Source: Gammaproteobacteria bacterium
Lineage (GTDB): Bacteria > Pseudomonadota > Gammaproteobacteria > Eutrophobiales > Eutrophobiaceae
Direction of reading: 5' to 3'
DNA length: 64,000 nt
Assembly (NCBI GenBank): GCA_041984885.1
Contig: JBHIXH010000010.1
Location: 1,697-65,696 of the forward strand
Shown piece by piece: positions 4,410-28,635 of the stretch (positions within the stretch are counted from its first letter, which is position 1; every line of letters starts with the position of its first letter). The notes beneath the pieces were generated by a model. That model was not told where the DNA came from. It ran no database searches and was given only the letters and a program-made list of their open reading frames with translations. A program made the position numbers and the translations under genes.

Positions 4410-8193
<3,784 letters not shown>

Positions 8194-11968: not shown

Positions 11969-14497
11969 CTAGTAGTTCGTTGCAGTGGAATTGTCTTTTT
12001 TCAGGTAGCGGTGCATTTCGTCCCGGGTCTGTAAAAAAGTCGTCTGCAGGTGTTCGAGTATGTTATCGGAAAGCTGGGATAAATCCGCGTTACGCGCAGC
12101 GTGACATATCACATCCGCGATCGAGGCAAGCTGTTTTGCACCGATACTTCTCGAACTCCCATCCAGGGTATGGGTATGATGCCCGAGGACCTCAAAATTC
12201 TTGTCCAGAAAAGCTGTCCTGATCTGTCCAATAGTCTCCTCGGAGTCATGCAGATAGCCGTTGATTAACTCGTGCATGAATTTGTTATCGGGTGCGATTT
12301 CAGTTATCTCCTGTAGAACCCTTAAATCCAGTAGCGGCAGGTTATCAACATTATTAGCGACCAGTTGCAACCTGGGTTTGCCCCGGTTGCTCTCCTTATC
12401 CAGTTTCTTTATAAGCAATTCACTGATGGTATTCAGCAGTTTTTGCGGTTCTACCGGTTTCGTCAGGTAGGCATCCAGACCGGCTTCTTCTACCTCCCGC
12501 ATGGCCTCTGTTGTCGCATTGGCAGTCAGTATCAAAACCGGAATGTGTTTTTTCTCGGGATGCATCATGCGATAGAGTTTCGCAGCTTCTATCCCGCCCA
12601 TGATCGGCATTTGCATATCAAGGATCAAAAGATCGAAGTCACGTTGCTCAAGTTCATCCAGCGCCAGTTCACCGTTCTCGGTCATGGTGACCCTGTGACC
12701 ACCTTTTTCCAGGATTTTTTGAATGACTTTCTGATTTGTTGGGTTGTCTTCTCCAACCAGTATGTCAAGGTCGGCGACGATGTTTGATATCCGATCGTCT
12801 GTTTCAAGTGCCTTGATAGTATTAATTTCGTCAAAATTCTGATGGCTCCTGATGACAGCATGCAGGCAACGAAACAGCGATGTCAGGTTAACAGGAGCGT
12901 GCAATGCAGATGCAAAGTCAGCCTCGAGCAGCTTATCAGAAAGCGCATCGGTCAGGTTTTCGCCAATATAAACCAGGCTGGGTTTGTTTTCGCCCACCTG
13001 GTTAAACAGGTCTTTGGCAAAGCCAACAGGTTCTATACTTTCATTGGCTAAAACGACAACATTATATTTTGAATCATCAGTGCCATCACCGGTTGTCAGA
13101 AGTGCGAGCGCTTCTGACTCTGTGACAGCTTCATGAGGTGTTATCGAGATTTGGGAAAAGTACTGGAGTAACTGTTTCCCCATTGAATCATTCTGATGTA
13201 CCAGCAGTACCGATCTGCCGAGATGGTGAACCGGTGAATCTATTTCGTGTACTGGCAAAGATTGTTCGACGAGAGGGGTGGTGATCCAGAATGTGCTGCC
13301 AACATTTAACTGGCTCTCAAAATTGATTTCTCCTCCCATCGCTTCAATTAATTGTTTCGCGATTGCCATGCCCAGGCCAGAGCCGCCGAATTCACGCGTG
13401 GTTGATTGATCTGCCTGGGAAAACGTACTGAATATTTTATTCTTCGCTGCCGGATCGATGCCGATGCCGGTGTCCGTGACCCTGATCGTTACATTCACCT
13501 TATTCTCATCAACTGACTGACTGACGACCTGTATTTTTATTTCGCCGGTCTTGGTGAATTTAATGGCATTATTGATCAGGTTAATCAAAATCTGGCGTAA
13601 ATGTTGTGCATCACCGCGTAACAGGACAGGAACGTCCGGCGAAATATGCCAACTGTATTTCAGCCCTTTTTTCTCTGCCACCGGCTTTAACATCAGGGCA
13701 GTCGCATTGATCAAGGCGTAAAAATCAAAGTTGATCGTTTCAATCTCCACCTTGCCGGCTTCGATCTTTGATATATCCAGAATATCGTTGATCAGGGTCA
13801 ACAGTGTTTTGGCTGAAGCATTGATCGTTGAAGAGTACTCTTTTTGTTCGTTAGATAGCCTGGTTTCATCGAGCAATTCGCTCATGCCGATAACGCCATT
13901 CAGGGGCGTACGTATCTCGTGACTCATATTGGCAAGAAACTGACTCTTGGCTTCGTTTGCTGCTTTCGCTTCCTGTACCGCTGCCTGCAGTCGGGAGATC
14001 AGGAATGATACGTAGGCACTGAGGATTACGATTGCTACGGCCAGGCCGTAGCCAAGAATTTTATGCTGACTCCAGAAAGAGTTATACGCGAGTACAAAAC
14101 TGAAACTGATCAGGCTGAGAAACGCACTGGCATACAGGTACCGATTACCATACCGAAAGCCGTGACCAAATGTCATGAATAAATAGGCGCCAAAGAGCGG
14201 GGATCCGATCTCTCCGGTCAGCATGATAGCAGTCGCGAGGAAACTGTGATCCATGACCATGCCAAAATAGCGTCGAAATGGATTGATTTCGGGGTATAGA
14301 ACGATCCAGAAGAAGTTAATCAGCAGGGCAAATTGATAGGCATAGGAAATTAAAAAAATCGATTGTGGCAGGGTATGTTCGAGGCTCATCCAGGAGACAT
14401 AACTAAGCCAGACAAAACCGACGAGAAATCGAATGATAACCTGCTCATGCTCGGAATCATGTCGCTCGGCAAGTCGTTTTAGTATGTTTTCAAACAT
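11969..14497 (-). CDS. rpfC: hybrid sensor histidine kinase (RpfC-like: multi-TM input, HisKA, HATPase, REC, HPt)
   Basis: 842 aa with ~5 N-terminal TM helices. Contains an H-box '[19 protein letters not shown]', an HATPase G-box 'DTGIGI...GGSGLGMAI', a REC domain '[11 protein letters not shown]...LLILDMQMP', and a C-terminal HPt '[12 protein letters not shown]'. Confidence 0.8.
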
Positions 14498-14589
14498 TGA
14501 GCCGTTTTTTCTGTTTCAAATGAAGAGCTTATTTCTCATAACTTTGTCTGACGCTATGTATTTTATCAGGTAATGAACCGGAAAGTATT

Positions 14590-15696
14590 TTAGCCCTGCG
14601 AATTCTGGGTTGAATTTATGAAGTTACCATCCGTTTCACGGGTGATCGGTTCAGATACTTCATCGACAATGGAAATAAAAGCATCAATGCAATCCGGGTC
14701 AAATTCTTTTCCGCGAGCGTTTTTCAGATACTCCAGCGCATCCTCGTGATTCCACGCTTTCCGGTAACTACGACTGCTGGTTAAGGCATCATAGACGTCG
14801 ACAACAGCCACGATCCTGGCCTCAATCGGAATCTTGTTCCCACTCAGATTATTCGGATAGCCCTGGCCATCAAAGCGTTCATGATGATTCAGTGCGATGA
14901 TTGCTCCCATGTCGAGAAAATCCGACTCACTGTTTTTCAGAATCTGATAACCGATCCAGGTATGACGTTGTACTATCCTGCGTTCATCGTCAGTCAATGC
15001 ATCGGTTTTGTTCAATATGGTCTCGGGAATGCCGACTTTACCGATGTCATGAATAACCGAAGCCTGCTCGATCGTATTACAAAAATCTTCCGGCAACCCC
15101 ATCACCTCGGCGGTACGTCGTGACAGTATGCCGACACGCTGAAAATGTTGATCACAAGGCACATCGCGAAATTCAGCAGCACGTGCAAGCCGGTAGAGTA
15201 TTGCACTTTCGCGGGTACGGATATTCACGGCCTGTTCCTGGTAACTCTTTTCAAGAGAGGCAGCCCGCTCGCGAATAATAGTCTGTTGCCTGCGCAGGTT
15301 CAGCAGGTTACGACAGCGAACCTTGCATTGATAATGGTCGATGGGTTTACACAGAAAATCTGTGGCGCCGGCGTCGAGTGCGTCATACAACACCGATTTA
15401 TCATCAACAATCGTCACAACGACAATTGGAATATCACACAGCAGCGGGTTTTCCCTGAATGATCGAATCAATTCAATACCGTCCATGTCCGGCATTTTGT
15501 AGTCAGTCAGGATAAGATCCGGAATATCTTCTTCAGCTGCCCGCAGTGCTTCTCTTGCATTGTCAAAACTGACTATCGAAATATTATGTCCAACGGTTTT
15601 AATAATCGTCTCGAGGATCCTGCGTTCGGTCGCCTGGTCATCAATAATCATGACCGAAAGCCTGAGTGATTGATCTCTTTTTTCGGGGTTATTCAT
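14590..15696 (-). CDS. rpfG: response regulator with HD-GYP phosphodiesterase domain (RpfG-like)
   Basis: 368 aa. REC domain 'VMIIDDQ...ILTDYKMPDMDG...CKP', then an HD-GYP domain with 'HDIGK' and 'HHERFDGQGYP'. Confidence 0.85.
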   Translation of the reverse strand: MNNPEKRDQSLRLSVMIIDDQATERRILETIIKTVGHNISIVSFDNAREALRAAEEDIPDLILTDYKMPDMDGIELIRSFRENPLLCDIPIVVVTIVDDKSVLYDALDAGATDFLCKPIDHYQCKVRCRNLLNLRRQQTIIRERAASLEKSYQEQAVNIRTRESAILYRLARAAEFRDVPCDQHFQRVGILSRRTAEVMGLPEDFCNTIEQASVIHDIGKVGIPETILNKTDALTDDERRIVQRHTWIGYQILKNSESDFLDMGAIIALNHHERFDGQGYPNNLSGNKIPIEARIVAVVDVYDALTSSRSYRKAWNHEDALEYLKNARGKEFDPDCIDAFISIVDEVSEPITRETDGNFINSTQNSQG

Positions 15697-16434: not shown

Positions 16435-19400
16435 TCAGGCTATCCAGTTTCTGGCGTTGTTGAACATGGTCATCCATGGGCTGTACTCGGACGGCCAATC
16501 TTCGTTAGTCCAGGATAATTGCTGCTGAAGAAATACCCGTTCCGGGTGCGGCATCATGATGGTGACGCGCCCATCGGCATTGGTAAAACCGGTCTCACCC
16601 CTTGTTGAACCATTCGGGTTAAGTGGATACGTGTCAGCAACATCACCTGCGTGATCAATGTATCGCAGGCAAACCTTTGCTGCGCCATTGTCTGAATGAT
16701 CAATATACTGAACCCGACCCTCGCCATGCGCCACGACGATAGGCAGTTCTGATCCCTGCATGTCACGCAGAAATATCGAATCCGATTTTTCTACGCGAAC
16801 CATCACGAGCCGGGATTCAAACTGCTCACTCGTGTTTTTTACAAAGCGTGGCCAGTTTTCCGTCCCGGGTATCAGTTCGGCAAGTTGCGACAGCATCTGA
16901 CAACCATTGCAGACACCAAGTGCAAATCGATCGGTACGCTGAAAGAATTGCTGAAACTGATCACGTAAGGCAGGATTGAACAGGATCGATTTTGCCCAGC
17001 CACCACCCGCACCGAGCACATCACCGTAGGAAAAACCACCGCAGGCGACGAGACCATGAAAGTCTTCAAGTGAACTCTCGCTGTTGATCAAATCCGACAT
17101 ATGTACATCGATACTGTCAAAGCCGGCGCGATCAAATGCCGCTGCCATTTCAACCTGACCATTGACGCCTTGTTCGCGCAGGATCGCGACTTTCGGACGG
17201 GCACCGGAGTGGATGGCGGGGTTCACTCTTGCAACCGGGAAGCTGGCATTCACGGAACGGCCGGGATCTTCCATGTCACACACATGCAGGTATTCCTGTT
17301 TGGCAGAATCCGGATTATCCCGCAGGCTTTGCATGTGAAAACTGGTCAGCGACCAGTCTTGTTGCAGTTGTTCCAGTGACTGGCTAAACACGGTTTCGGC
17401 TTCGTTGGTAATGGACAGGGTTCGAATATCCGTAACGGCTCCGATCACGTGCACGTGTTCTGCCAGAAGCCCGTTTCTGGTAAACGTATCCAGCACGGTT
17501 TCCAGGCAGGACTTGCGTATTTGAATAACGGCACCGGCTTCCTCGTTAAACAGGCAATCCAGTGTATCGCCTGCAAGCTCATCAAGCGCAATATTCAGGC
17601 CCAGTCGACCGGCCAGGCACATCTCGGTCAAGGTGACAAACAATCCGCCATCCGACCGGTCGTGATAGGCGAGCAGGTAACCGGCATCGTTCAATAGTTG
17701 AATGGTTTGAAAAAAATCAGCCAGTGTTTCAGGTTTTTCTATGTCAGGGCAGGCACCACCGATGTGGTTATACACCTGTGTCAGACAGGAACCGCCAAGT
17801 CGGGTTTTGCCCAGGCCCAGATCGATGAGCAATAAAACCGTTTCTTCATTCGGATTGACCAGTTGCGGCGTTAACGAGGTGGTGACATCCGCGACCGGTG
17901 CAAACGCTGTAACAATTAACGATAACGGTGCGGTGACCTGATGGTGCTCATCATCCTGTTGCCAGACGGTGTTCATTGATAATGAATCCTTTCCAACCGG
18001 TATACACAGTTGTAACTGCTGACAGAATTCTGATACGGCTTGTACAGTTTCATACAGGCGCACATCTTCATCGAGTTGACCCGCCGCCGCCATCCAGTTT
18101 GCCGATAAGGAAATATCGGCAAGTTGTAACACGCGGGCTGCACACAGATTGGTAATGGCCTCGGCAATAGCCATACGCCCGGAAGCAGCAGCATTGATCA
18201 GGGCCGTCGGTGTCCGTTCTCCGATTGCCATCGCCTCACCGCACAAGGAACCATAACCACTGGCCGTGATGGCACAGTCTGCTACCGGCACTTGCCACGG
18301 ACCGACCAGTTGATCGCGGACGACGAGACCGGAAACGCTGCGGTCGCCAATGTGAATCAGAAATCGTTTATCGGCGATGGTCGGCAGTTGCAATAGACGC
18401 CGGCAGGCATCATCAACATCAATGTTGGCCGTATTGAATTCGGTTTGATTGTAAGCGAGTGCTCTCGCTTCACGTTGCATTTTCGGTAACCGGCCGAGCA
18501 ACATCGGCAACGGCATGTCGATTGGATTGTTATTAAATTGCGAATCTGACAAGACCAGTTGCTGTGCCGCGGTCGTCTCACCAAGCACCGCAAACGGTGC
18601 ACGTTCACGTTCGCAGATCGCGGTAAAATCGGACAGGCGCGCCTCGGCAATGGCGAGCACATAGCGTTCCTGCGCCTCGTTGCACCAGATTTCCAGCGGT
18701 GACATACCGGGTTCGGCATTCGGTATCCGGCGTAGCTCAAATTCAGCGCCACGTTCACTGTCGTGCACCAGTTCCGGTAACGCGTTCGACAGGCCACCGG
18801 CACCCACATCGTGAATGGAGATAATCGGGTTCTCATTACCCATTGCCCAGCATCGATCGATGACTTCCTGGCAACGACGTTGCATCTCCGGGTTGTGTCG
18901 TTGTACCGAGGCAAAATCCAGTTCTTCATCACTGTCACCGGAGGCCATGGATGAAGCCGCACCACCACCAAGGCCAATCAACATCGCCGGTCCACCCAGC
19001 ACGATCAGTTTTGCCCCCGGCGGAATCGTCTGCTTGTGGATATGTTCAGATCGGATCATGCCGTAACCGCCGGCGATCATGATCGGTTTATGATAGCCAC
19101 GCACGCAATCGCTTGCCGGTTGCAATTGTTCATAACTGCGGAAGTAACCACATAAGGCCGGTCGACCAAACTCGTTGTTGAACGCTGCGCCACCAATCGG
19201 GCCGTCCAGCATAATGTCGAGTGCCGATAATATTCTTTCCGGTTTGTTTTCACCGGATTCCCACGGTTGTGGCAGTGCCGGAATATTCAGATTGGAAACC
19301 GAAAAACCGGTCAAGCCGGCTTTTGGTTTGCCGCCACGTCCGGTCGCTGCTTCATCGCGAATCTCACCGCCGGAACCGGTAGCGGCGCCAGCCAGGGCAG

Positions 19401-20304
19401 CGATAGCCGTCGGATGGTTATGCGTTTCCACCTTCATTAACAGATGAACTTCTTCATCGTGCCAGCGATAGCGATGTTTCTCGTCCGGAAAAAAACGGCT
19501 CGCGTAGCTGCCAGTGGTGACAGCGGCGTTATCACTGTAGGCTGACAATACACGTCCCGGATGACGGGAGTGTGTCTGACGGATCAGATCGAATAAGGAG
19601 TCCGTTTTTTGCACACCATTGATGTGCCAATTGGCATTGAAGATCTTATGGCGACAATGTTCCGAGTTCGCCTGCGCAAACATCATCAACTCAACATCAG
19701 TCGGATTACGTTTTAACGACGCGTAACTCGCGACCAGGTAATCGATTTCTGTTTCTGCCAGCGCCAGTCCCAGCGATTGATTCGCCTGTTCCAATGCCGC
19801 CCGTCCTTGCTGCATCAGGTCAATTTCATTAAAAGTACCCGGTTCATGTTGCTGAAATAAATTTTCGGCAGCTTCAACATTGAACAACACCGTCTCCGTC
19901 ATGCGGTCGTGCAGTTGCCCACTGATCGATTGCAGTTGCTCGCGCGTCAGCGTTGCTTCATCACAACTAAAATACCAGGCAATACCACGTTCTACACGCG
20001 TGACCTCAACCAGGCCGCAATTGGTCAGGATGTCGGTGGCCTTGCTTGACCAGGGTGATTGTGTGCCGATTCGAGGTGTGACGACCAGGTGAATGCCAGG
20101 CATGGGGCCGGCGGCATCACTGTCGGGATCGAGTAACTGTTTTACCTGTGCAGATTGCTGCTCGCTCAGCTCCTTCGCTGCATGAAGAAAGTGAATGTGC
20201 CGCGTCTCTACCTGTCGGATTTGCGGCAGACAGGATTGCAACAGGGGAAGGAGTTTCGCGATACGAAAGTTTGAGACGGCGTGACCGCCGACAAAAATCT
20301 GCAT
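16435..20304 (-). CDS. purL: phosphoribosylformylglycinamidine synthase (single-chain)
   Basis: 1289 aa, full-length large PurL with a C-terminal glutamine amidotransferase domain. Confidence 0.92.
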
Positions 20305-20384: not shown

Positions 20385-21254
20385 TTATTTCAGTTCGGTC
20401 ACTTTTACCGCAATGCTGCGGAATTCCTGTCCGGTCCGGCGTGTCGTGGTTAAATTCAGTCTGCCCTTGTCGTCGAATTGTTGCTCGACGCCACCAAGAT
20501 AGATCCACTCACCGAGTCTGCCGGATGCCGTCGTCTCGACATTCTGAATATCAAACACACCACCGTGCGCGGAATTTACCCGGTTTAGCTGTGGCGCGAT
20601 CATCAACGTGACAATATCGCCACTGAGCCGTGGTAACACATAAAATCCGGAAGTGACATCGCGATACTGTATGCCATCCTGCAGAATCACGCCGCCACCC
20701 GGCGTGATGATCGTTTGTTGATTGGCGACGGGTACCGAATGGCCGGTATGAATAAACGCCGGGTAGCCTTCAGTGACCTGCACAGAAAAGGTATTCTTGT
20801 CCTCAATGCTGGAACGTGTCGACAGCGCACGATATCCAATCACATTACCCTCGTCGTCCTTGATCGCAATAATACCGCCACCGTTGCGGGCGCCCGGGTC
20901 CGGGCTGGCAATCGTGACATCTCCCGAACTGTAACGACCGGAGATCCCCTGTTCGTTATGGTTCACATTACCGTCGACATTTTGTTTCACCGAGATCATC
21001 AAACGGCGAGGCGCCTTATCCAGACTGTGGATGACCTGTTTGATCTGGTTCAGGTTTTCGGCTGTGGATTTCACAATGACTTGATCGTTCATGCCGGTGA
21101 CGGTACCCCCGTCAACAACGAGGGGTTTGACCATGGGGATGACGTCATTCGCCAGTCGGTGTTTCAGTGAGATGACTTCAAGCACCATTTCTGCCGTTAC
21201 CGGGGCCGTGAAAAACAGTGCCGACAACAGCAGCGTCATTGTTAATGTCTTCAT
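20385..21254 (-). CDS. short secretin-like exported protein (Secretin_N-like domain plus short secretin-like C-domain)
   Basis: 289 aa with the signal peptide 'MKTLTMTLLLSALFFTAPVTA'. The N-terminal block 'VISLKHRLANDVIPMVKPLV...NLNQIKQVIHSLD' resembles a secretin N-domain. The C-terminal half, 'GFYVLPRLSGDIVTLMIAPQLN...GEWIYLGGV...RSIAVKVTEL', resembles a secretin core. Confidence 0.5.
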   Translation of the reverse strand: MKTLTMTLLLSALFFTAPVTAEMVLEVISLKHRLANDVIPMVKPLVVDGGTVTGMNDQVIVKSTAENLNQIKQVIHSLDKAPRRLMISVKQNVDGNVNHNEQGISGRYSSGDVTIASPDPGARNGGGIIAIKDDEGNVIGYRALSTRSSIEDKNTFSVQVTEGYPAFIHTGHSVPVANQQTIITPGGGVILQDGIQYRDVTSGFYVLPRLSGDIVTLMIAPQLNRVNSAHGGVFDIQNVETTASGRLGEWIYLGGVEQQFDDKGRLNLTTTRRTGQEFRSIAVKVTELK

Positions 21255-21799
21255 ATCAGTAGCCTCCTGAAGTTAGGGTCGGGTTTGGCCACTTCCCACA
21301 TATCGTTAAACTCGTTCTGGTAATTGGTTGCCGTCCTTTTATCATTGAAACAGGTCTGTGACTCGTAGCGTTCGGCATTTTTTCGGTGCATATAACCAAT
21401 TGAATCGACGATCAGTAGACCGGCATTGAAATCCTTATGTTCCTGACCGGCGCGACGAATTTCAATATAGCTGCTCAAACTGCCAACCAGTTGGAGTAAA
21501 CGGTGCCCGCGTTTGACAATCAGGTCCGGTTCCCAGACCAGCAGGCGCACCTGTGCCCGGCGATTGTTTGTCACAAGAGATTTAACGGCAGAGGTGAACC
21601 TGACTTGATCATAAATCACCGGATCGAGCATGCGGCTTGCGACCTCAATGCTGCGTCGACTCTGCCTGACAAGTGCGGCCGCGCAGTGTCTGTTCTCACT
21701 GGCGGTCTCCAGCTGTACGACCTCTTTGTTTATTCCGCCAAGTTTGTACTCATCCAGATTTAGCATTAAGGCTGCCTGTAGATTGAAATTTGATGCCAA
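21251..21799 (-). CDS. hypothetical protein, translationally coupled to the secretin-like gene
   Basis: 182 aa with no signal peptide or TM segment. It overlaps the downstream gene by 4 nt (ATGA). No family recognised. Confidence 0.4.
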   Translation of the reverse strand: MASNFNLQAALMLNLDEYKLGGINKEVVQLETASENRHCAAALVRQSRRSIEVASRMLDPVIYDQVRFTSAVKSLVTNNRRAQVRLLVWEPDLIVKRGHRLLQLVGSLSSYIEIRRAGQEHKDFNAGLLIVDSIGYMHRKNAERYESQTCFNDKRTATNYQNEFNDMWEVAKPDPNFRRLLI

Positions 21800-21823: not shown

Positions 21824-22270
21824 TCAGTCACCGGGTAACGATTTGATCATTCGGCAATGCGGAATATCCGCCTCGTCGAACTGCTCGCCTGTTTCAGTAA
21901 AGCCGAATGACTGATAAAACTTAGTCGCATGACTTTGTGAATTTAAAAAGACCGATTTCATCTGCTTTCGTCCTGCGACATCAAGCAACATACGTAACAT
22001 GGCTTTGCCGACACCGGCACGACGAAATGGTTGTAATACAGCCATGCGACCGATTTGGCCGGAGTCCAGTAAACGGGCCGTGCCAATAGCCTTGCCGGAA
22101 TCGGTGATTGCCAGCAAATGCAGGCAAACTGCGTCATGCTCGTCCCATTCCAGCTGTTCAGGCACCTTCTGCTCGTGAATGAAAACACAGGTTCGGATTG
22201 CCCGAATACGGGTTGCATCCTCCTGCCAGTCAGCAATGAAGACTTCAAATTCGAACGGTTCAATCGACAT
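21824..22270 (-). CDS. GNAT family N-acetyltransferase
   Basis: ~148 aa with the acetyl-CoA binding motif 'RRAGVGKAMLRMLL'. ATG 22270 is preferred over TTG 22288; both overlap the roxA stop. Confidence 0.75.
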   Translation of the reverse strand: MSIEPFEFEVFIADWQEDATRIRAIRTCVFIHEQKVPEQLEWDEHDAVCLHLLAITDSGKAIGTARLLDSGQIGRMAVLQPFRRAGVGKAMLRMLLDVAGRKQMKSVFLNSQSHATKFYQSFGFTETGEQFDEADIPHCRMIKSLPGD

Positions 22271-23387
22271 ACAGTATCCCTTTTGCAAGCAGTGATGCGA
22301 TTAATTCGTGCAGCGCGGCCTGATCAGCAGACAATCGGAGTTCTTCTGTTGTGATCGGTTCATGTCGACTCAGTTTATCGGCAATCGGTAATGACTCAAC
22401 TGCCACGATATATTTTTCCCCGTTCACATATAAATGGATTTTATTGTCGAGAAACATAAACACGGTTTTGCTGGATCGGTCACAGTGCAAATGACAATCC
22501 TCGTTTAATAATGCAGAAACCGGCAGTGATGTGGATGGGGCCGATTCCATTCGATCCGCCGTGATAAGGGATGCAAACCAGTCGGCGAATGCGTCCCGAT
22601 TCGATATGGCCGCAACCATATCCGAATAAAGACGGTCGATATCAGGAGCACTGATTTCGCCTGCATGCGTCTGCAACGGTCTTTGCGGGTCAGAAAACCG
22701 CTCGCCTGCAGCAAACAGGTGATGGCTGTCGTTGACAAAGCCGGTCAGCAACTCAGTGGCCGTTGGTGCACGAAAGCCTATCGAGATCGTCATGGATTCA
22801 CAGTCGGCGATGCCATGATGGGCAACGCCGGGGGGCAGGTACAACAGATCACCGGGCTCGAGCGTCCAGGCTTGTTCAGCCTGAAAATGATCGATTACAC
22901 GCAGTGGTTTGCCTTCAATAAAATCCGTCTCGTCATAATCATGGCAATTGATGCGCCACTCGCGGTTACCCAGTGCCTGCAATAAAAACACATCATAGCT
23001 ATCCAGGTGTGGGCCGACACCACCGTGCGGGGTGGCATAACTGACCATGATGTCATCAACGCGCCAGTTTGGAATAAAGCGAAAATGCTCAAGCAGCTTT
23101 GCAACCTCGGAATGCCACTGATCGACACGTTGAACCAGTAATGACCACGATGAGGGTGGCAGATTTCGCAGGGTTGTTTCAGCAAAAGGACCATAATCGA
23201 CTTGCCAGTGATCCGTTTGCGGTGTGTGTCGCACAAGACGGGATTCGACCTCTTGCTCCAGGCACAGGCCAGCCAGTTCGTCCGGTGAAATGGGTGGCGC
23301 CGGCATGGGTATCGCCTGGCGCAATAGCAGTGGTTGTTGTTGCCAGTATTGATCCAGAAATGTTTGCGGATCGAAATCTCGCAACAT
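22260..23387 (-). CDS. roxA: ribosomal protein uL16 arginine hydroxylase (JmjC/cupin-4, YcfD/RoxA family)
   Basis: 375 aa. Length and cupin-4 layout match E. coli YcfD, including the Fe-binding 'HLDSYD...HHG' context. Confidence 0.7.
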   Translation of the reverse strand: MLRDFDPQTFLDQYWQQQPLLLRQAIPMPAPPISPDELAGLCLEQEVESRLVRHTPQTDHWQVDYGPFAETTLRNLPPSSWSLLVQRVDQWHSEVAKLLEHFRFIPNWRVDDIMVSYATPHGGVGPHLDSYDVFLLQALGNREWRINCHDYDETDFIEGKPLRVIDHFQAEQAWTLEPGDLLYLPPGVAHHGIADCESMTISIGFRAPTATELLTGFVNDSHHLFAAGERFSDPQRPLQTHAGEISAPDIDRLYSDMVAAISNRDAFADWFASLITADRMESAPSTSLPVSALLNEDCHLHCDRSSKTVFMFLDNKIHLYVNGEKYIVAVESLPIADKLSRHEPITTEELRLSADQAALHELIASLLAKGILYVD

Positions 23388-23403
23388 GCGGCCCGGGATA
23401 TGG

Positions 23404-25826
<2,423 letters not shown>

Positions 25827-27957: not shown

Positions 27958-28635
27958 CTAGCCTGCGCGACGTCGGGCGAAACCGACCCCAATCAAACCG
28001 GCTCCGAGAAGCGCGAGCGTGAACGGCTCGGGCACGGATGCCAGCGTCAGGTCCATATTCAGATCCCAGTGATGAGATTGCATATCGCCGGTAATCCATG
28101 CGGAGGCACCGAACACCGGTGTTTTATCATTGGCGCCCATGCCGATCTGCAAGCCGAAGTTGTTCACCATACCATTGATTAAAAAGTCAGCCGGGTCTTC
28201 CTCTTCATTTTCCGCATAGTCAATCGTGATAGAACCAAGCACATTGCGGAAGAACAGCCAGTCAGCCGGGTTGCCGCTGCCGACCGGCGGTTTGTAATCG
28301 ACGAGCAGATGGTTATCGGTAAAATTACTGAACAATAAATCGATGACTGCGTCACCCTCTTCATTCGAAGCGGTGCCCTGCAATCGTGCTGTCCACGTGC
28401 TCGGTGCCCCGCTATCGAAAATCGTCAGCGTGGTTCCCTGGTCGAAATCAAAATAATTTGAGCAAGCAGCGCCGGGAATATCCTGGTTGGTCCAGAGACC
28501 GTGTGGTGCGGTCGCATCACAGCCGCTGCCCGTGGGACCGGTGCTGGTTACGTTAAAGATGATGTCTGCCTTCGCTGGCGAGATGACCAACGCCAGCAAC
28601 ATCATCGAAAAAATCAGATTCAGTCTTGTTTTCAT
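27958..28635 (-). CDS. PEP-CTERM sorting-domain secreted protein (putative exosortase substrate)
   Basis: 225 aa. N-terminal signal peptide. C-terminal 'VPEP' followed by a TM helix 'FTLALLGAGLIGVGF' and 'ARRRAG'. Confidence 0.8.
   Translation of the reverse strand: MKTRLNLIFSMMLLALVISPAKADIIFNVTSTGPTGSGCDATAPHGLWTNQDIPGAACSNYFDFDQGTTLTIFDSGAPSTWTARLQGTASNEEGDAVIDLLFSNFTDNHLLVDYKPPVGSGNPADWLFFRNVLGSITIDYAENEEEDPADFLINGMVNNFGLQIGMGANDKTPVFGASAWITGDMQSHHWDLNMDLTLASVPEPFTLALLGAGLIGVGFARRRAG

What the first reader, a model, noticed from the sequence alone, without database searches (positions are those of the whole stretch)
20385..21799. Orphan mini-secretin-like exported protein translationally coupled to an unknown cytoplasmic partner next to purL
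The 289-aa product has a signal peptide and a Secretin_N-like block ('VISLKHRLANDVIPMVKPLV...IKQVIHSLD'). Its C-terminal half has the hallmarks of a secretin core ('GFYVLPRLSGDIVTLMIAPQLN', 'GEWIYLGGV', terminal 'RSIAVKVTEL'). It is far shorter than T2SS/T4P/T3SS secretins (450-750 aa), and no pilus or secretion ATPase, pilot or inner-membrane partner is nearby. It overlaps by 4 nt (ATGA) with an upstream 182-aa protein of unknown family. This could be a stand-alone outer-membrane pore module or a degenerate remnant.
Basis: partly seen in the sequence, partly recalled or inferred. Interest (0 to 1): 0.55.

Follow-up and report, generated by a model that had tools for sequence, protein, structure and literature searches.

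The report
Stand-alone mini-secretin with PLD-like partner
This is an intact, widely conserved but unstudied "minimal" relative of the large outer-membrane secretion pores (secretins); it lacks the parts those pores use to enter the membrane and to dock to a secretion machine, and in one bacterial lineage it is always co-translated with a small cytoplasmic protein that looks like an inactive phospholipase-D-type enzyme.

Summary
On the minus strand, a 289-aa ORF (20385-21254) overlaps by ATGA a DUF7931 gene (21251-21766; 171 aa from its ATG). It lies 80 nt upstream of purL.

The 289-aa protein is a true secretin-superfamily member:
- Secretin_N scores above Pfam's threshold.
- 37 of 38 homologues hit Pfam Secretin.
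- The family profile hits GspD in the PDB (E about 1e-8).
- The top 39 PDB fold matches of the AF2 model are all secretins.

It is stripped down: signal peptide, one N-domain and a gated barrel core. It has no N0 domain, S-domain or amphipathic helical loop (0 of 270 sequences), and its lip is half-length, polar and aromatic-free.

The family has at least 765 clusters at 50% identity, all about 260-310 aa, so it is not a remnant.

DUF7931 has a PLD fold without the HKD catalytic motif. It sits directly upstream only within one monophyletic gammaproteobacterial clade (79 loci), usually with a 4-nt overlap. A second clade (80 loci) lacks it and often follows an AFG1/ZapE ATPase gene.

No T2SS or T4P genes lie within ±20 kb. 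Function is unknown. Self-assembly into a filament-independent gated ring is inferred, and outer-membrane insertion is doubtful. P. aeruginosa PA2632/PA2633 are probable, untested orthologues.

The parts
20385..21254 (-). Mini-secretin CDS (289 aa plus stop)
   Evidence: ORF. A 100% identical database protein, P0001, is. The AF2 model's top 39 PDB fold matches are all secretins.
21192..21254 (-). Predicted Sec signal peptide (residues 1-21, cleavage after VTA)
   Evidence: Sequence pattern. Ala21 is invariant and Glu22 nearly so (36 of 38, Asp in the other two) in A1. The model shows a helix at residues 2-14. This is an inference; no predictor was run.
21006..21179 (-). Single Secretin_N (N1/N3-type ring-building) domain, residues 26-83
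   Evidence: Pfam PF03958 E 1.8e-7, 31.7 bits, threshold 28.2. The profile aligns to the XcpQ/GspD N-domain, E about 5e-6. All 38 homologues match.
20388..21005 (-). Secretin barrel domain, residues 84-289 (outer strands about 84-110, 138-161, 250-266, 269-287; inner barrel and gates about 162-247)
   Evidence: Secondary structure of the AF2 model. The junction motif D..PR.L.I.V.Q corresponds to the GspD N3/secretin junction.
20478..20822 (-). Conserved secretin core with both gate hairpins (residues 145-259; motifs TGHSVPV, SGFYVLPRL, GRLGEWIYLGG)
   Evidence: Profile A1 against ETEC GspD residues 427-543, domain E 2.3e-5, and against E. coli K-12 GspD 443-556. PF00263 matches profile positions about 5-130 of 169 in 8 of 8 homologues, all above threshold.
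20844..20930 (-). Short polar 'lip' (residues 109-137)
   Evidence: Family mean: 28 residues, 0.1 aromatic, 8 charged, Kyte-Doolittle -0.98. E. coli GspD lip: 57 residues, 8 aromatic, -0.30. G126, D133, G136 and N137 are conserved.
20421..20486 (-). C-terminal hairpin turn where canonical secretins carry the amphipathic helical loop (residues 257-278); the protein ends 11 residues later with no S-domain
   Evidence: GspD has KVPLLGDIPLVGQLF here, and 102 residues follow its GGL motif. No family sequence (0 of 270) has such a motif, and the tail after GxWxxxGG is 34 residues in 222 of 245. PF00263 profile positions 131-169 are unmatched.
21251..21766 (-). DUF7931 CDS (171 aa from ATG; the longest ORF runs to a TTG at 21799): cytoplasmic single PLD-fold domain without the HKD motif
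   Evidence: Pfam PF25559 E 5.8e-38. P0121 is 171 aa. AF2 pLDDT is 94.8. Foldseek matches TrmBL2 C-domain (3e-8), NucT, Nuc, Zucchini and FAM83. HxK(x)4D occurs in 1 of 125 sequences and there is no hydrophobic segment.
21251..21254 (-). ATGA stop/start overlap (translational coupling)
   Evidence: The same 4-nt overlap occurs in 56 of 73 related loci.
21263..21268 (-). AGGAGG Shine-Dalgarno for the secretin, encoded by the Arg-Arg codons of the DUF7931 C-terminal FRR motif
   Evidence: AGR codons are 49% of Arg codons in the last 8 codons of DUF7931, against 15% in purL of the same loci.
16435..20304 (-). purL (context, not part of the module)
   Evidence: Synteny.
21824..24783 (-). GNAT (21824-22288), JmjC/RoxA-like (22260-23387) and purB (23404-24783): upstream context on the same strand

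Best explanation
The locus is a vertically inherited two-gene envelope module embedded in the core genome.

Gene 1, DUF7931, is a cytoplasmic single-domain PLD-fold protein. It has lost the catalytic His and Lys: Asn and Ala/Ser/Gly occupy the -7 and -5 positions before the invariant Asp. It keeps a conserved polar, cationic set of residues (H88, R89, R104, N114, R128, R133, E135). It is most likely a ligand- or protein-binding pseudo-enzyme rather than a phosphodiesterase.

Gene 2 is translated by coupling to gene 1, through the ATGA overlap and a Shine-Dalgarno inside gene 1's last codons. It is exported by Sec and is a minimal secretin. It has one Secretin_N ring-building domain fused directly to a secretin double-barrel core that keeps both gate hairpins. 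It lacks the N0 domain (the link to an inner-membrane platform), the S-domain (pilotin binding) and the amphipathic helical loop, and its lip is half-length and polar.

Inferred mechanism. The architecture matches the minimal self-assembling unit of PulD (N3 plus C-domain). I therefore expect it to self-assemble into a gated multimeric ring at the periplasmic face of the outer membrane, working independently of any T2SS, T4P, T3SS or phage filament machine. Because the membrane-entering elements are missing, it either stays a periplasmic or peripheral ring or needs an unidentified partner to breach the outer membrane. The substrate and physiological role are unknown.

What is shown and what is inferred. 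Shown: gene structure, homology, fold, the missing elements, family size and co-occurrence. Inferred: export, oligomerisation, gating, location and the role of DUF7931.
For: Secretin identity:
- Secretin_N scores above the Pfam threshold.
- 37 of 38 homologues hit PF00263, and 8 of 8 tested score above threshold.
- The family profile hits GspD structures at E 1e-8 and 1.6e-8.
- The AF2 model's top 39 PDB matches are all secretins, E down to 9e-15, TM about 0.5.
- It matches the PHROG for phage pIV at 4e-14.

Minimal architecture:
- The mature protein starts at the N-domain.
- The PF00263 match stops at profile position about 130 of 169.
- No AHL-like motif occurs in 270 sequences, and the tail after the GG motif is 34 residues in 222 of 245.
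- The comparison with E. coli GspD places a deletion exactly at KVPLLGDIPLVGQLF.
- The AHL is reported as present in all solved secretins and as the most conserved sequence of the family (PMC6532946, PMC6155069, PMC8134430).
- N3 plus the C-domain suffices for PulD multimerisation (PMC4604470).

Not a remnant:
- 765 clusters at 50% identity score E<=1e-30, all about 260-310 aa.
- 41 residues are invariant.
- Pairwise distances track purB and purL, r 0.87-0.91.
- GC content matches the neighbours.

Stand-alone:
- Only housekeeping genes lie within ±20 kb.
- The same is true in related loci.

Partner:
- DUF7931 scores E 5.8e-38, has a PLD fold and lacks HKD.
- It sits immediately upstream in 75 of 80 loci with room and in 4 of 4 loci found from the DUF7931 side.
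- The 4-nt overlap occurs in 56 of 73 loci.
- DUF7931-positive tips form one clade.
- The partial distance correlation of DUF7931 with the secretin is 0.52, against -0.03 to 0.28 for the cross pairs.
- AGR codons are enriched at the junction.
Against: - No oligomer could be modelled or measured.
- The monomer model has only moderate confidence: pLDDT 74, with gate loops below 50.
- The window protein on its own does not reach Pfam Secretin at E<=1. That assignment rests on the family.
- Loss of the AHL and of a hydrophobic lip argues against a classical outer-membrane pore.
- A gated ring with no piston has no obvious way to open.
- DUF7931 is cytoplasmic and the secretin periplasmic, so a physical partnership is hard to picture.
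- 80 of 80 loci of a second clade, and 5 betaproteobacterial loci, lack DUF7931. The secretin therefore does not need it in general.
- The mirror-tree signal may partly reflect two similarly fast-evolving proteins.
Confidence: 0.55

Rival explanations
1. It is not a pore. The protein forms a soluble or peripherally attached periplasmic ring or scaffold, or simply a binding protein, with a structural or housekeeping role in the envelope such as peptidoglycan or division-site organisation. The secretin fold is reused without membrane insertion.
For: The AHL is absent, and the lip is polar, aromatic-free and has conserved Gly/Asp/Asn residues, which suits a binding surface better than a lipid belt. 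In the second clade the gene follows the AFG1/ZapE ATPase in 34 of 54 loci. In Sideroxydans it is flanked by NlpC/P60 and MltB peptidoglycan hydrolases and a Sel1 lipoprotein.
Against: Both gate hairpins and the barrel motifs are conserved, which is hard to explain without a channel. The neighbour associations may be plain synteny. The likely P. aeruginosa counterpart PA2633 was picked up in a surface-shaving proteome (PMC8959810).
Confidence: 0.22
2. It is an accessory subunit of a T2SS or T4P machine encoded elsewhere in the genome. It might stack under, or co-assemble with, the full-length secretin.
For: By sequence it is closest to T2SS GspD: TIGR02517 E 7e-12 and PDB GspD at 1e-8. Its beta- and gammaproteobacterial distribution overlaps that of T2SS and T4aP.
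Against: No such genes lie within ±20 kb here or in any of about 170 related loci. The N0 domain that links secretins to inner-membrane platforms is missing. The gene sits in housekeeping operons, not secretion clusters.
Confidence: 0.1
3. The adjacency of DUF7931 and the secretin is inherited synteny with no functional link. The secretin gene simply rides on whatever cytoplasmic housekeeping gene precedes it.
For: The second clade lacks DUF7931 and instead follows ZapE, often by a few nucleotides. The two proteins are in different compartments. The whole purB-purL region is syntenic.
Against: The flanks vary while the pair stays intact: JmjC/GNAT are present or absent, purL is displaced or absent in 8 or more loci, and purB is absent in some. 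The 4-nt overlap is kept in 56 of 73 loci across 35-78% identity. DUF7931 was never found without the secretin. Residual co-variation is 0.52.
Confidence: 0.1
4. It is a degenerate remnant of a GspD gene or of a filamentous-prophage pIV gene.
For: It is short. The window protein alone misses Pfam Secretin. It matches the PHROG for pIV.
Against: The ORF is intact. There are 765 clusters of the same length and the C-terminal tail length is fixed. 41 residues are invariant and inheritance is vertical. No phage genes are nearby, there is no PADLOC hit and no plasmid hit, and composition is normal.
Confidence: 0.03

Closest known systems
T2SS secretin GspD/PulD/XcpQ (TIGR02517; PDB 5WQ7, 5ZDH, 5WLN)
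   Same: It is the best sequence match. It shares the Secretin_N domain fold, the N-domain/barrel junction, the motifs GxxVPV, G..L.V.P and G..v.lGG, two gate hairpins and the final strand.
   Different: GspD is 650 aa against 289 aa. The mini-secretin has no N0, N1 or N2 domains, no S-domain and no AHL (KVPLLGDIPLVGQLF is deleted). Its lip is 28 polar residues against 57 aromatic-rich ones. There is no gsp operon. It scores 44.6 bits against a 351-bit cut-off.
Engineered PulD 28-42/259-660 (N3 + C + S domains)
   Same: It has the same domain logic: one N-domain directly preceding the barrel. That truncation multimerises and assembles in vitro and in vivo (PMC4604470).
   Different: PulD 28-42/259-660 keeps the AHL, a full lip and the S-domain, and it is an artificial construct. 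The present family is a natural version and is smaller still.
Filamentous-phage pIV (f1/M13; PDB 7OFH)
   Same: It is the smallest classical secretin and works without a pilus machine. It matches by PHROG profile at 4e-14 and by Foldseek at 4e-12.
   Different: pIV is about 405-430 aa with N0, N3 and an AHL, and it is encoded in a phage genome next to pI. Here there are no phage genes and no N0 or AHL.
Mitochondrial truncated GspD of some protists (PMC8134430)
   Same: It is a naturally truncated secretin lacking N0-N3 and the S-domain, and it still forms pores.
   Different: The mitochondrial protein keeps the AHL, which the paper calls the family signature and essential for insertion, and it co-occurs with GspE/F/G. 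The present family keeps one N-domain, loses the AHL and has no Gsp partners nearby.
P. aeruginosa PA2633 (Q9I0K5, 'Secretin_N domain-containing protein') and PA2632; in PA14, PA14_30070/30080
   Same: The annotated gene order matches: purB (PA2629), PA2630, acetyltransferase (PA2631), PA2632, PA2633 (PMC9901815, PMC10119676, PMC8959810). This mirrors purB, JmjC, GNAT, DUF7931, mini-secretin here. Both genes are described as uncharacterised (PMC5542712).
   Different: Orthology was not tested by sequence, because no Pseudomonas genome was reachable. Pseudomonas did not appear among motif-based genome hits, so if related it is divergent. purL is elsewhere in PAO1 (PA3763).
Non-catalytic PLD-fold domains: TrmB/TrmBL2 C-terminal domain, FAM83 DUF1669 (comparators for the partner protein)
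   Same: They are the best structural matches to DUF7931 (TrmBL2 E 3e-8, TM 0.66; FAM83 6e-7). Like them, DUF7931 lacks the HKD catalytic motif.
   Different: DUF7931 is a stand-alone 171-aa protein without a DNA-binding or other domain. It has its own invariant residues (D48, H88, D121, W157) and is tied to a secretin gene.

Membership tests
Secretin superfamily | Secretin_N (N1/N3-type) periplasmic ring-building domain | tested here: met
   PF03958 scores 31.7 bits against a threshold of 28.2, residues 26-83. All 38 homologues match.
Secretin superfamily | C-terminal secretin domain (Pfam PF00263) by sequence profile | tested here: met
   Met at family level. 37 of 38 homologues hit, and 8 of 8 tested score above the 27.5-bit threshold. 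Profile A1 hits GspD cores at E 1.6e-8. The window protein alone gives no hit at E<=1, and only profile positions about 5-130 of 169 are covered.
Secretin superfamily | Secretin protomer fold (double beta-barrel strands with gate hairpins) | tested here: met
   AF2 model pLDDT is 74. The top 39 Foldseek PDB hits are all secretins: PilQ, GspD, InvG, BfpB, pIV and RcpA, E 9e-15 to 1.5e-7, TM about 0.45-0.5.
Secretin superfamily | Amphipathic helical loop (AHL), reported in all solved secretins and as the most conserved sequence of the family | tested here: not met
   No family sequence (0 of 270) has a P-x-[LIVMF]-G-x-[LIVMF]-F or IPxL-type motif. Only 23 residues lie between GG and the last strand, against 35 in GspD. 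PF00263 positions 131-169 are unmatched. Literature: PMC6532946, PMC6155069, PMC8134430.
Secretin superfamily | N0 domain linking to an inner-membrane platform | tested here: not met
   The mature protein begins at residue 22, two residues before the single N-domain. There is no room for an N0 domain.
Secretin superfamily | S-domain or pilotin-binding C-terminus (present in many secretins, not all) | tested here: not met
   The protein ends with the last barrel strand. The tail after the GG motif is 34 residues, against 102 in E. coli GspD. No lipoprotein gene is adjacent in the window.
Secretin superfamily | SDS- and heat-resistant 12-15-mer ring located in the outer membrane | not testable with these tools
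   No multimer prediction or experiment was possible. The only hint is PA2633 in a surface-shaving proteome (PMC8959810), and its orthology is untested.
T2SS secretin GspD (TIGR02517 equivalog) | Score above the equivalog cut-off and a gsp operon context | tested here: not met
   It scores 44.6 bits against a cut-off of 351.35. No gspC-M genes lie within ±20 kb.
T4P secretin PilQ (TIGR02515) / T3SS SctC (TIGR02516) | Score above the family cut-off and a pil or sct context | tested here: not met
   It scores 21.7 against 284.35 for PilQ and 13.9 against 238.45 for SctC. No such genes are nearby.
Filamentous-phage pIV | Secretin encoded within an inovirus genome, with N0 and N3 domains | tested here: not met
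   It matches the PHROG profile (4e-14), but its neighbours are purL, purB and other housekeeping genes. It has no N0 domain and normal GC.
Pfam DUF7931 (PF25559), for the upstream gene | Profile match above threshold over the full domain | tested here: met
   E 5.8e-38, 130.3 bits against a threshold of 27, covering profile positions 3-149 of 149.
PLD/HKD phosphodiesterase superfamily, for the upstream gene | PLD fold | tested here: met
   AF2 pLDDT is 94.8. Foldseek matches TrmBL2 (3e-8), NucT (4e-7), Nuc 1BYR (8e-6), Zucchini, PLD2 and F13.
PLD/HKD phosphodiesterase superfamily, for the upstream gene | Catalytic HxK(x)4D(x)6GSxN motif | tested here: not met
   The strict motif occurs in 1 of 125 sequences. 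At 7 and 5 residues before the invariant D121 the family has Asn (55 of 59) and Ala/Ser/Gly. This mapping rests on motif spacing, not on a structural superposition.

The most novel reading that the evidence does not exclude
The 289-aa protein represents an unrecognised class of secretin. It would be a filament-independent, AHL-less, N0-less minimal ring, encoded in core-genome operons of many Beta- and Gammaproteobacteria and probably including P. aeruginosa PA2633. It would do a housekeeping envelope job by a mode of membrane association or gating unlike that of any studied secretin. In one clade it would be controlled or serviced by a cytoplasmic pseudo-PLD ligand-binding protein.
Probability: 0.4. 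Interest if true: 0.75.

Novelty: new variant of a known kind. Interest (0 to 1): 0.6.

Why it matters
Secretins are studied almost only as the outer-membrane exits of large machines: T2SS, T3SS, type IV pili, Tad and filamentous phage. Their BAM-independent membrane insertion is attributed to the amphipathic helical loop and the hydrophobic lip.

A very large natural family keeps the gate and barrel but lacks exactly those elements and every docking domain. It is a ready-made test of which parts are needed for ring assembly, gating and membrane entry.

It also points to an unknown secretin function that needs no filament. If P. aeruginosa PA2632/PA2633 are orthologues, existing mutant libraries make this directly testable.

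The tight coupling to a catalytically dead PLD-fold protein would give a first functional handle on DUF7931.

Tried and rejected
- PDB search with the single sequence gave only marginal hits (E about 1). The family profile was needed.
- Pfam on the window protein alone misses PF00263.
- PADLOC gave no hit for either protein, so a defence-system reading was dropped.
- PHROGs gave only the pIV family for the secretin and nothing for DUF7931. The BFVD fold search gave only pIV-type hits. With the housekeeping context, a prophage origin was rejected.
- tblastn of the mini-secretin against 72,556 plasmids found no match.
- The promoter and terminator scan found nothing above shuffled expectation that separates the genes.
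- Literature searches found no paper on this family. The terms were DUF7931, 'orphan/mini/minimal/short/small/truncated secretin' and secretin+purL.
- Three cluster look-ups meant to put organism or product names on family members returned only automatic names: 'GspD/PulD (secretin)', 'secretin N-terminal domain-containing protein', 'hypothetical', and for DUF7931 sometimes 'acyltransferase'. No Pseudomonas member was recovered, so PA2633 orthology stays untested.
A narrower alignment worked.
- A lipoprotein reading was rejected. Only 11 of 270 sequences have a lipobox-like string, and the conserved cleavage context is Ala-Glu.
Full report
**Observation**

On the minus strand the window carries a 289-aa ORF at 20385..21254 and, overlapping it by ATGA (21251-21254), a second ORF that runs to 21799.

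The upstream gene most likely starts at the ATG at 21766. This gives 171 aa, matching the identical database protein P0121 and all homologues. The 182-aa figure comes from the longest ORF, which starts at a TTG.

The last codons of the upstream gene read AAC TTC AGG AGG CTA CTG ATA TGA. They place an AGGAGG Shine-Dalgarno 8 nt before the secretin ATG. purL starts 80 nt downstream. GNAT, a JmjC/RoxA-like oxygenase, purB and an aldo-keto reductase precede on the same strand with gaps of 57 nt or less.

**What the 289-aa protein is**

Pfam finds Secretin_N at residues 26-83: 31.7 bits against a threshold of 28.2. On its own the protein misses Pfam Secretin. The family evidence is clear, however:
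- 37 of 38 aligned homologues hit PF00263, and 8 of 8 inspected score above threshold.
- A profile of the family hits P. aeruginosa XcpQ and ETEC GspD structures at E 1e-8 and 1.6e-8. Residues 145-259 align to the GspD core.
- An AlphaFold2 model (pLDDT 74) has secretins as its 39 best PDB matches: PilQ, GspD, InvG, BfpB, pIV and RcpA. E-values reach 9e-15 and TM-scores are about 0.5.
- NCBIfam places it nearest to GspD but far below every equivalog cut-off.

The N-terminus has a typical Sec signal peptide. Ala21 is invariant and Glu22 is nearly so at the predicted cleavage site (36 of 38 sequences, Asp in the other two). This is read from the sequence pattern; no predictor was run.

**Anatomy compared with canonical secretins**

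The mature protein begins two residues before its single N-domain, so there is no N0, N1 or N2 domain.

I aligned it to E. coli K-12 GspD, taken from NC_000913. Several features are retained:
- the N-domain/barrel junction (D..PR.L.I.V.Q);
- the strand and helix before the inner barrel;
- the GxSVPV motif;
- both gate hairpins;
- the SGFYVLPR motif and the GRLGEWxxxGG motif;
- the last strand.

Two regions differ.
- **After the GG motif.** GspD has 35 residues here, including KVPLLGDIPLVGQLF, followed by the last strand and a roughly 55-residue S-domain. The mini-secretin has 23 residues, predicted as a tight hairpin, and ends with the last strand.
- **The lip.** The mini-secretin lip averages 28 residues with 0.1 aromatic and 8 charged residues and a Kyte-Doolittle mean of -0.98. 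The GspD lip has 57 residues, 8 of them aromatic, and a mean of -0.30.

Family-wide figures agree:
- No AHL-like motif occurs in any of 270 sequences.
- The tail after the GG motif is exactly 34 residues in 222 of 245 sequences.
- PF00263 is matched only over profile positions about 5-130 of 169.

The deleted motif is what the literature calls the amphipathic helical loop (AHL). Three papers describe its importance:
- It has been seen in every solved secretin and is thought to start contact with the inner leaflet (PMC6532946).
- It is the most conserved sequence of the family (PMC6155069).
- It is a family signature essential for insertion (PMC8134430).

My equating of that motif with the AHL rests on those statements and on its position between the last two outer strands.

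The remaining architecture, one N-domain plus the barrel, is what was shown to suffice for PulD multimerisation (PMC4604470).

**It is not a remnant**
- The exhaustive profile search found 765 clusters at 50% identity with E<=1e-30. The best 150 are almost all 260-310 aa, the exceptions being a few shorter (203-256 aa) and two longer (351 and 372 aa) sequences.
- 41 residues are invariant among the 38 aligned homologues (49-78% identical to the window protein).
- In 43 loci, pairwise distances of the secretin and of DUF7931 correlate with those of purB and purL (r 0.87-0.91). Their mean divergence is about 1.4-fold higher. This indicates vertical inheritance under purifying selection.
- GC content equals that of the neighbours.

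**The partner**

The upstream protein matches Pfam DUF7931 (E 5.8e-38) and has no hydrophobic segment. Its AlphaFold2 model is confident (pLDDT 94.8) and is a single PLD-fold domain. Best matches are the TrmBL2 C-terminal domain (3e-8, TM 0.66), NucT, FAM83 DUF1669, Nuc and Zucchini.

The HxK(x)4D catalytic motif is absent, occurring in 1 of 125 sequences. Seven and five residues before the invariant Asp121 the family has Asn and Ala/Ser/Gly. Its own conserved set is D48, H88-R89, R104, N114, R128, R133, E135 and W157.

I therefore read it as a non-catalytic PLD-like binding module, like its two best structural matches. That reading is an inference.

**Co-occurrence**

*From the secretin side.* 83 loci were recovered from species-representative genomes and assemblies.
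- 75 of the 80 with upstream sequence carry DUF7931 immediately upstream.
- A 4-nt overlap is present in 56 of 73.

*From the DUF7931 side.* 4 of 4 loci have the mini-secretin next, and in three of them purB overlaps DUF7931 by 8 nt.

*Stability of the pair.* The pair stays intact while its flanks change. JmjC and GNAT come and go, and purL is displaced or absent in at least 8 loci.

*Junction codons.* AGR codons make up 49% of Arg codons in the last eight codons of DUF7931, against 15% in purL. This is consistent with selection for the embedded ribosome-binding site.

*Clade limits.* The association is clade-specific.
- 80 metagenomic loci of a more distant, GC-rich subfamily contain no DUF7931.
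- Five betaproteobacterial loci (Sideroxydans, Gallionella, Sulfuricellaceae) also lack it.
- In a neighbour-joining tree rooted on GspD, the 76 DUF7931-positive tips form one clade of 78. The other two tips are loci truncated upstream.

*The second clade.* Here the gene follows an AFG1/ZapE ATPase gene in 34 of 54 loci, mostly within a few nucleotides. In 17 of 75 loci a small two-helix membrane protein follows with a 4-nt overlap.

*Residual co-variation.* The partial correlation of DUF7931 and secretin distances, controlling for purB and purL, is 0.52. The cross pairs give -0.03 to 0.28. This is suggestive only.

**Context**

All genes within about 20 kb on either side are housekeeping:
- pyrG, kdsA, eno, ispD and ispF;
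- a hybrid kinase and an HD-domain response regulator;
- smr, purL and purB;
- RNase T, gyrA, pheA, hisC, tyrA and aroA.

There is no secretion ATPase, pilin, platform protein or pilotin. PADLOC, plasmid and phage searches were negative or uninformative.

**Mechanism**

*Shown:*
- A coupled two-gene unit.
- An exported secretin-fold protein with one ring-building domain and a conserved gate.
- No docking domains and no membrane-insertion elements.

*Inferred:*
- It self-assembles into a gated ring near the outer membrane, independently of any filament machine.
- Without the AHL and a hydrophobic lip, it either remains periplasmic or peripheral, or needs an unknown partner to cross the membrane.
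- DUF7931 acts in the cytoplasm as a ligand- or protein-binding factor whose synthesis is tied to that of the secretin.

The substrate and physiological role remain unknown.

**Known relatives and novelty**

No paper on the family or on DUF7931 was found. Databases give only automatic names.

One lead came from memory and was partly checked in papers. In P. aeruginosa, PA2629 is purB, PA2631 is an acetyltransferase, and PA2633 (Q9I0K5) is a 'Secretin_N domain-containing protein' detected in a surface-shaving proteome. PA14_30070 and PA14_30080 are called uncharacterised (PMC9901815, PMC10119676, PMC8959810, PMC5542712). The annotated gene order matches this window, but I could not test orthology by sequence.

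I rate the finding as a new variant of a known kind. It belongs to the secretin superfamily by fold and core motifs, but it fails several features that define studied secretins.

Noticed in passing
window 4431-6085 (+): pyrG (CTP synthase) is split into two ORFs. ORF 4431-5588 ends '...[18 protein letters not shown]'. ORF 5570-6085 starts '[12 protein letters not shown]...HRHRYEFN', the rest of the glutaminase domain. This indicates a frameshift near 5540-5590 in an essential gene, probably an assembly or sequencing error.
   Followed up: partly
loci L089-L168 (metagenome contigs), e.g. L163:2408-3763 and L161:6795-7067: A second, GC-rich clade of mini-secretins has no DUF7931. It sits directly downstream of an AFG1/ZapE ATPase gene in 34 of 54 loci, after sucB and lpdA. 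In 17 of 75 loci a small 2-TM protein of about 75-90 aa follows, overlapping the secretin stop by 4 nt. That small protein has a weak, sub-threshold Phage_holin_3_6 similarity.
   Followed up: partly
L077 (Sideroxydans MAG) 4499-7378: The betaproteobacterial mini-secretin is flanked by MltB, a divergently transcribed NlpC/P60 lipoprotein and a downstream Sel1-repeat protein with a lipobox-like signal peptide. A Sel1 protein also lies about 0.7 kb downstream in two Sedimenticola loci.
   Followed up: no
window 21255-21275 (-) and the equivalent junction in related loci: The conserved C-terminal F-R-R motif of DUF7931 is often encoded with AGG or AGA codons, which create the ribosome-binding site of the secretin gene. 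Part of that protein motif's conservation may therefore be a nucleotide-level constraint.
   Followed up: yes
L086-L088, 5001-5008: In some relatives purB overlaps DUF7931 by 8 nt. purB, DUF7931 and the secretin are then packed without any intergenic space and are presumably co-transcribed with a purine-biosynthesis gene.
   Followed up: no
window 22260-22288 (-): The JmjC/RoxA-like oxygenase gene and the GNAT acetyltransferase gene overlap by 29 nt. They occur together as an optional insert between purB and DUF7931 in only some related loci.
   Followed up: no
window 27958-28635 (-): A 225-aa ORF between RNase T and an amidohydrolase gene has no Pfam match at E<=1e-5.
   Followed up: no
window 11969-15696 (-): A hybrid histidine kinase (HisKA-HATPase-REC-Hpt) and a REC-HD(HD_5) response regulator lie downstream of smr. 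The same smr and REC-HD neighbours recur next to purL in distant relatives.
   Followed up: no
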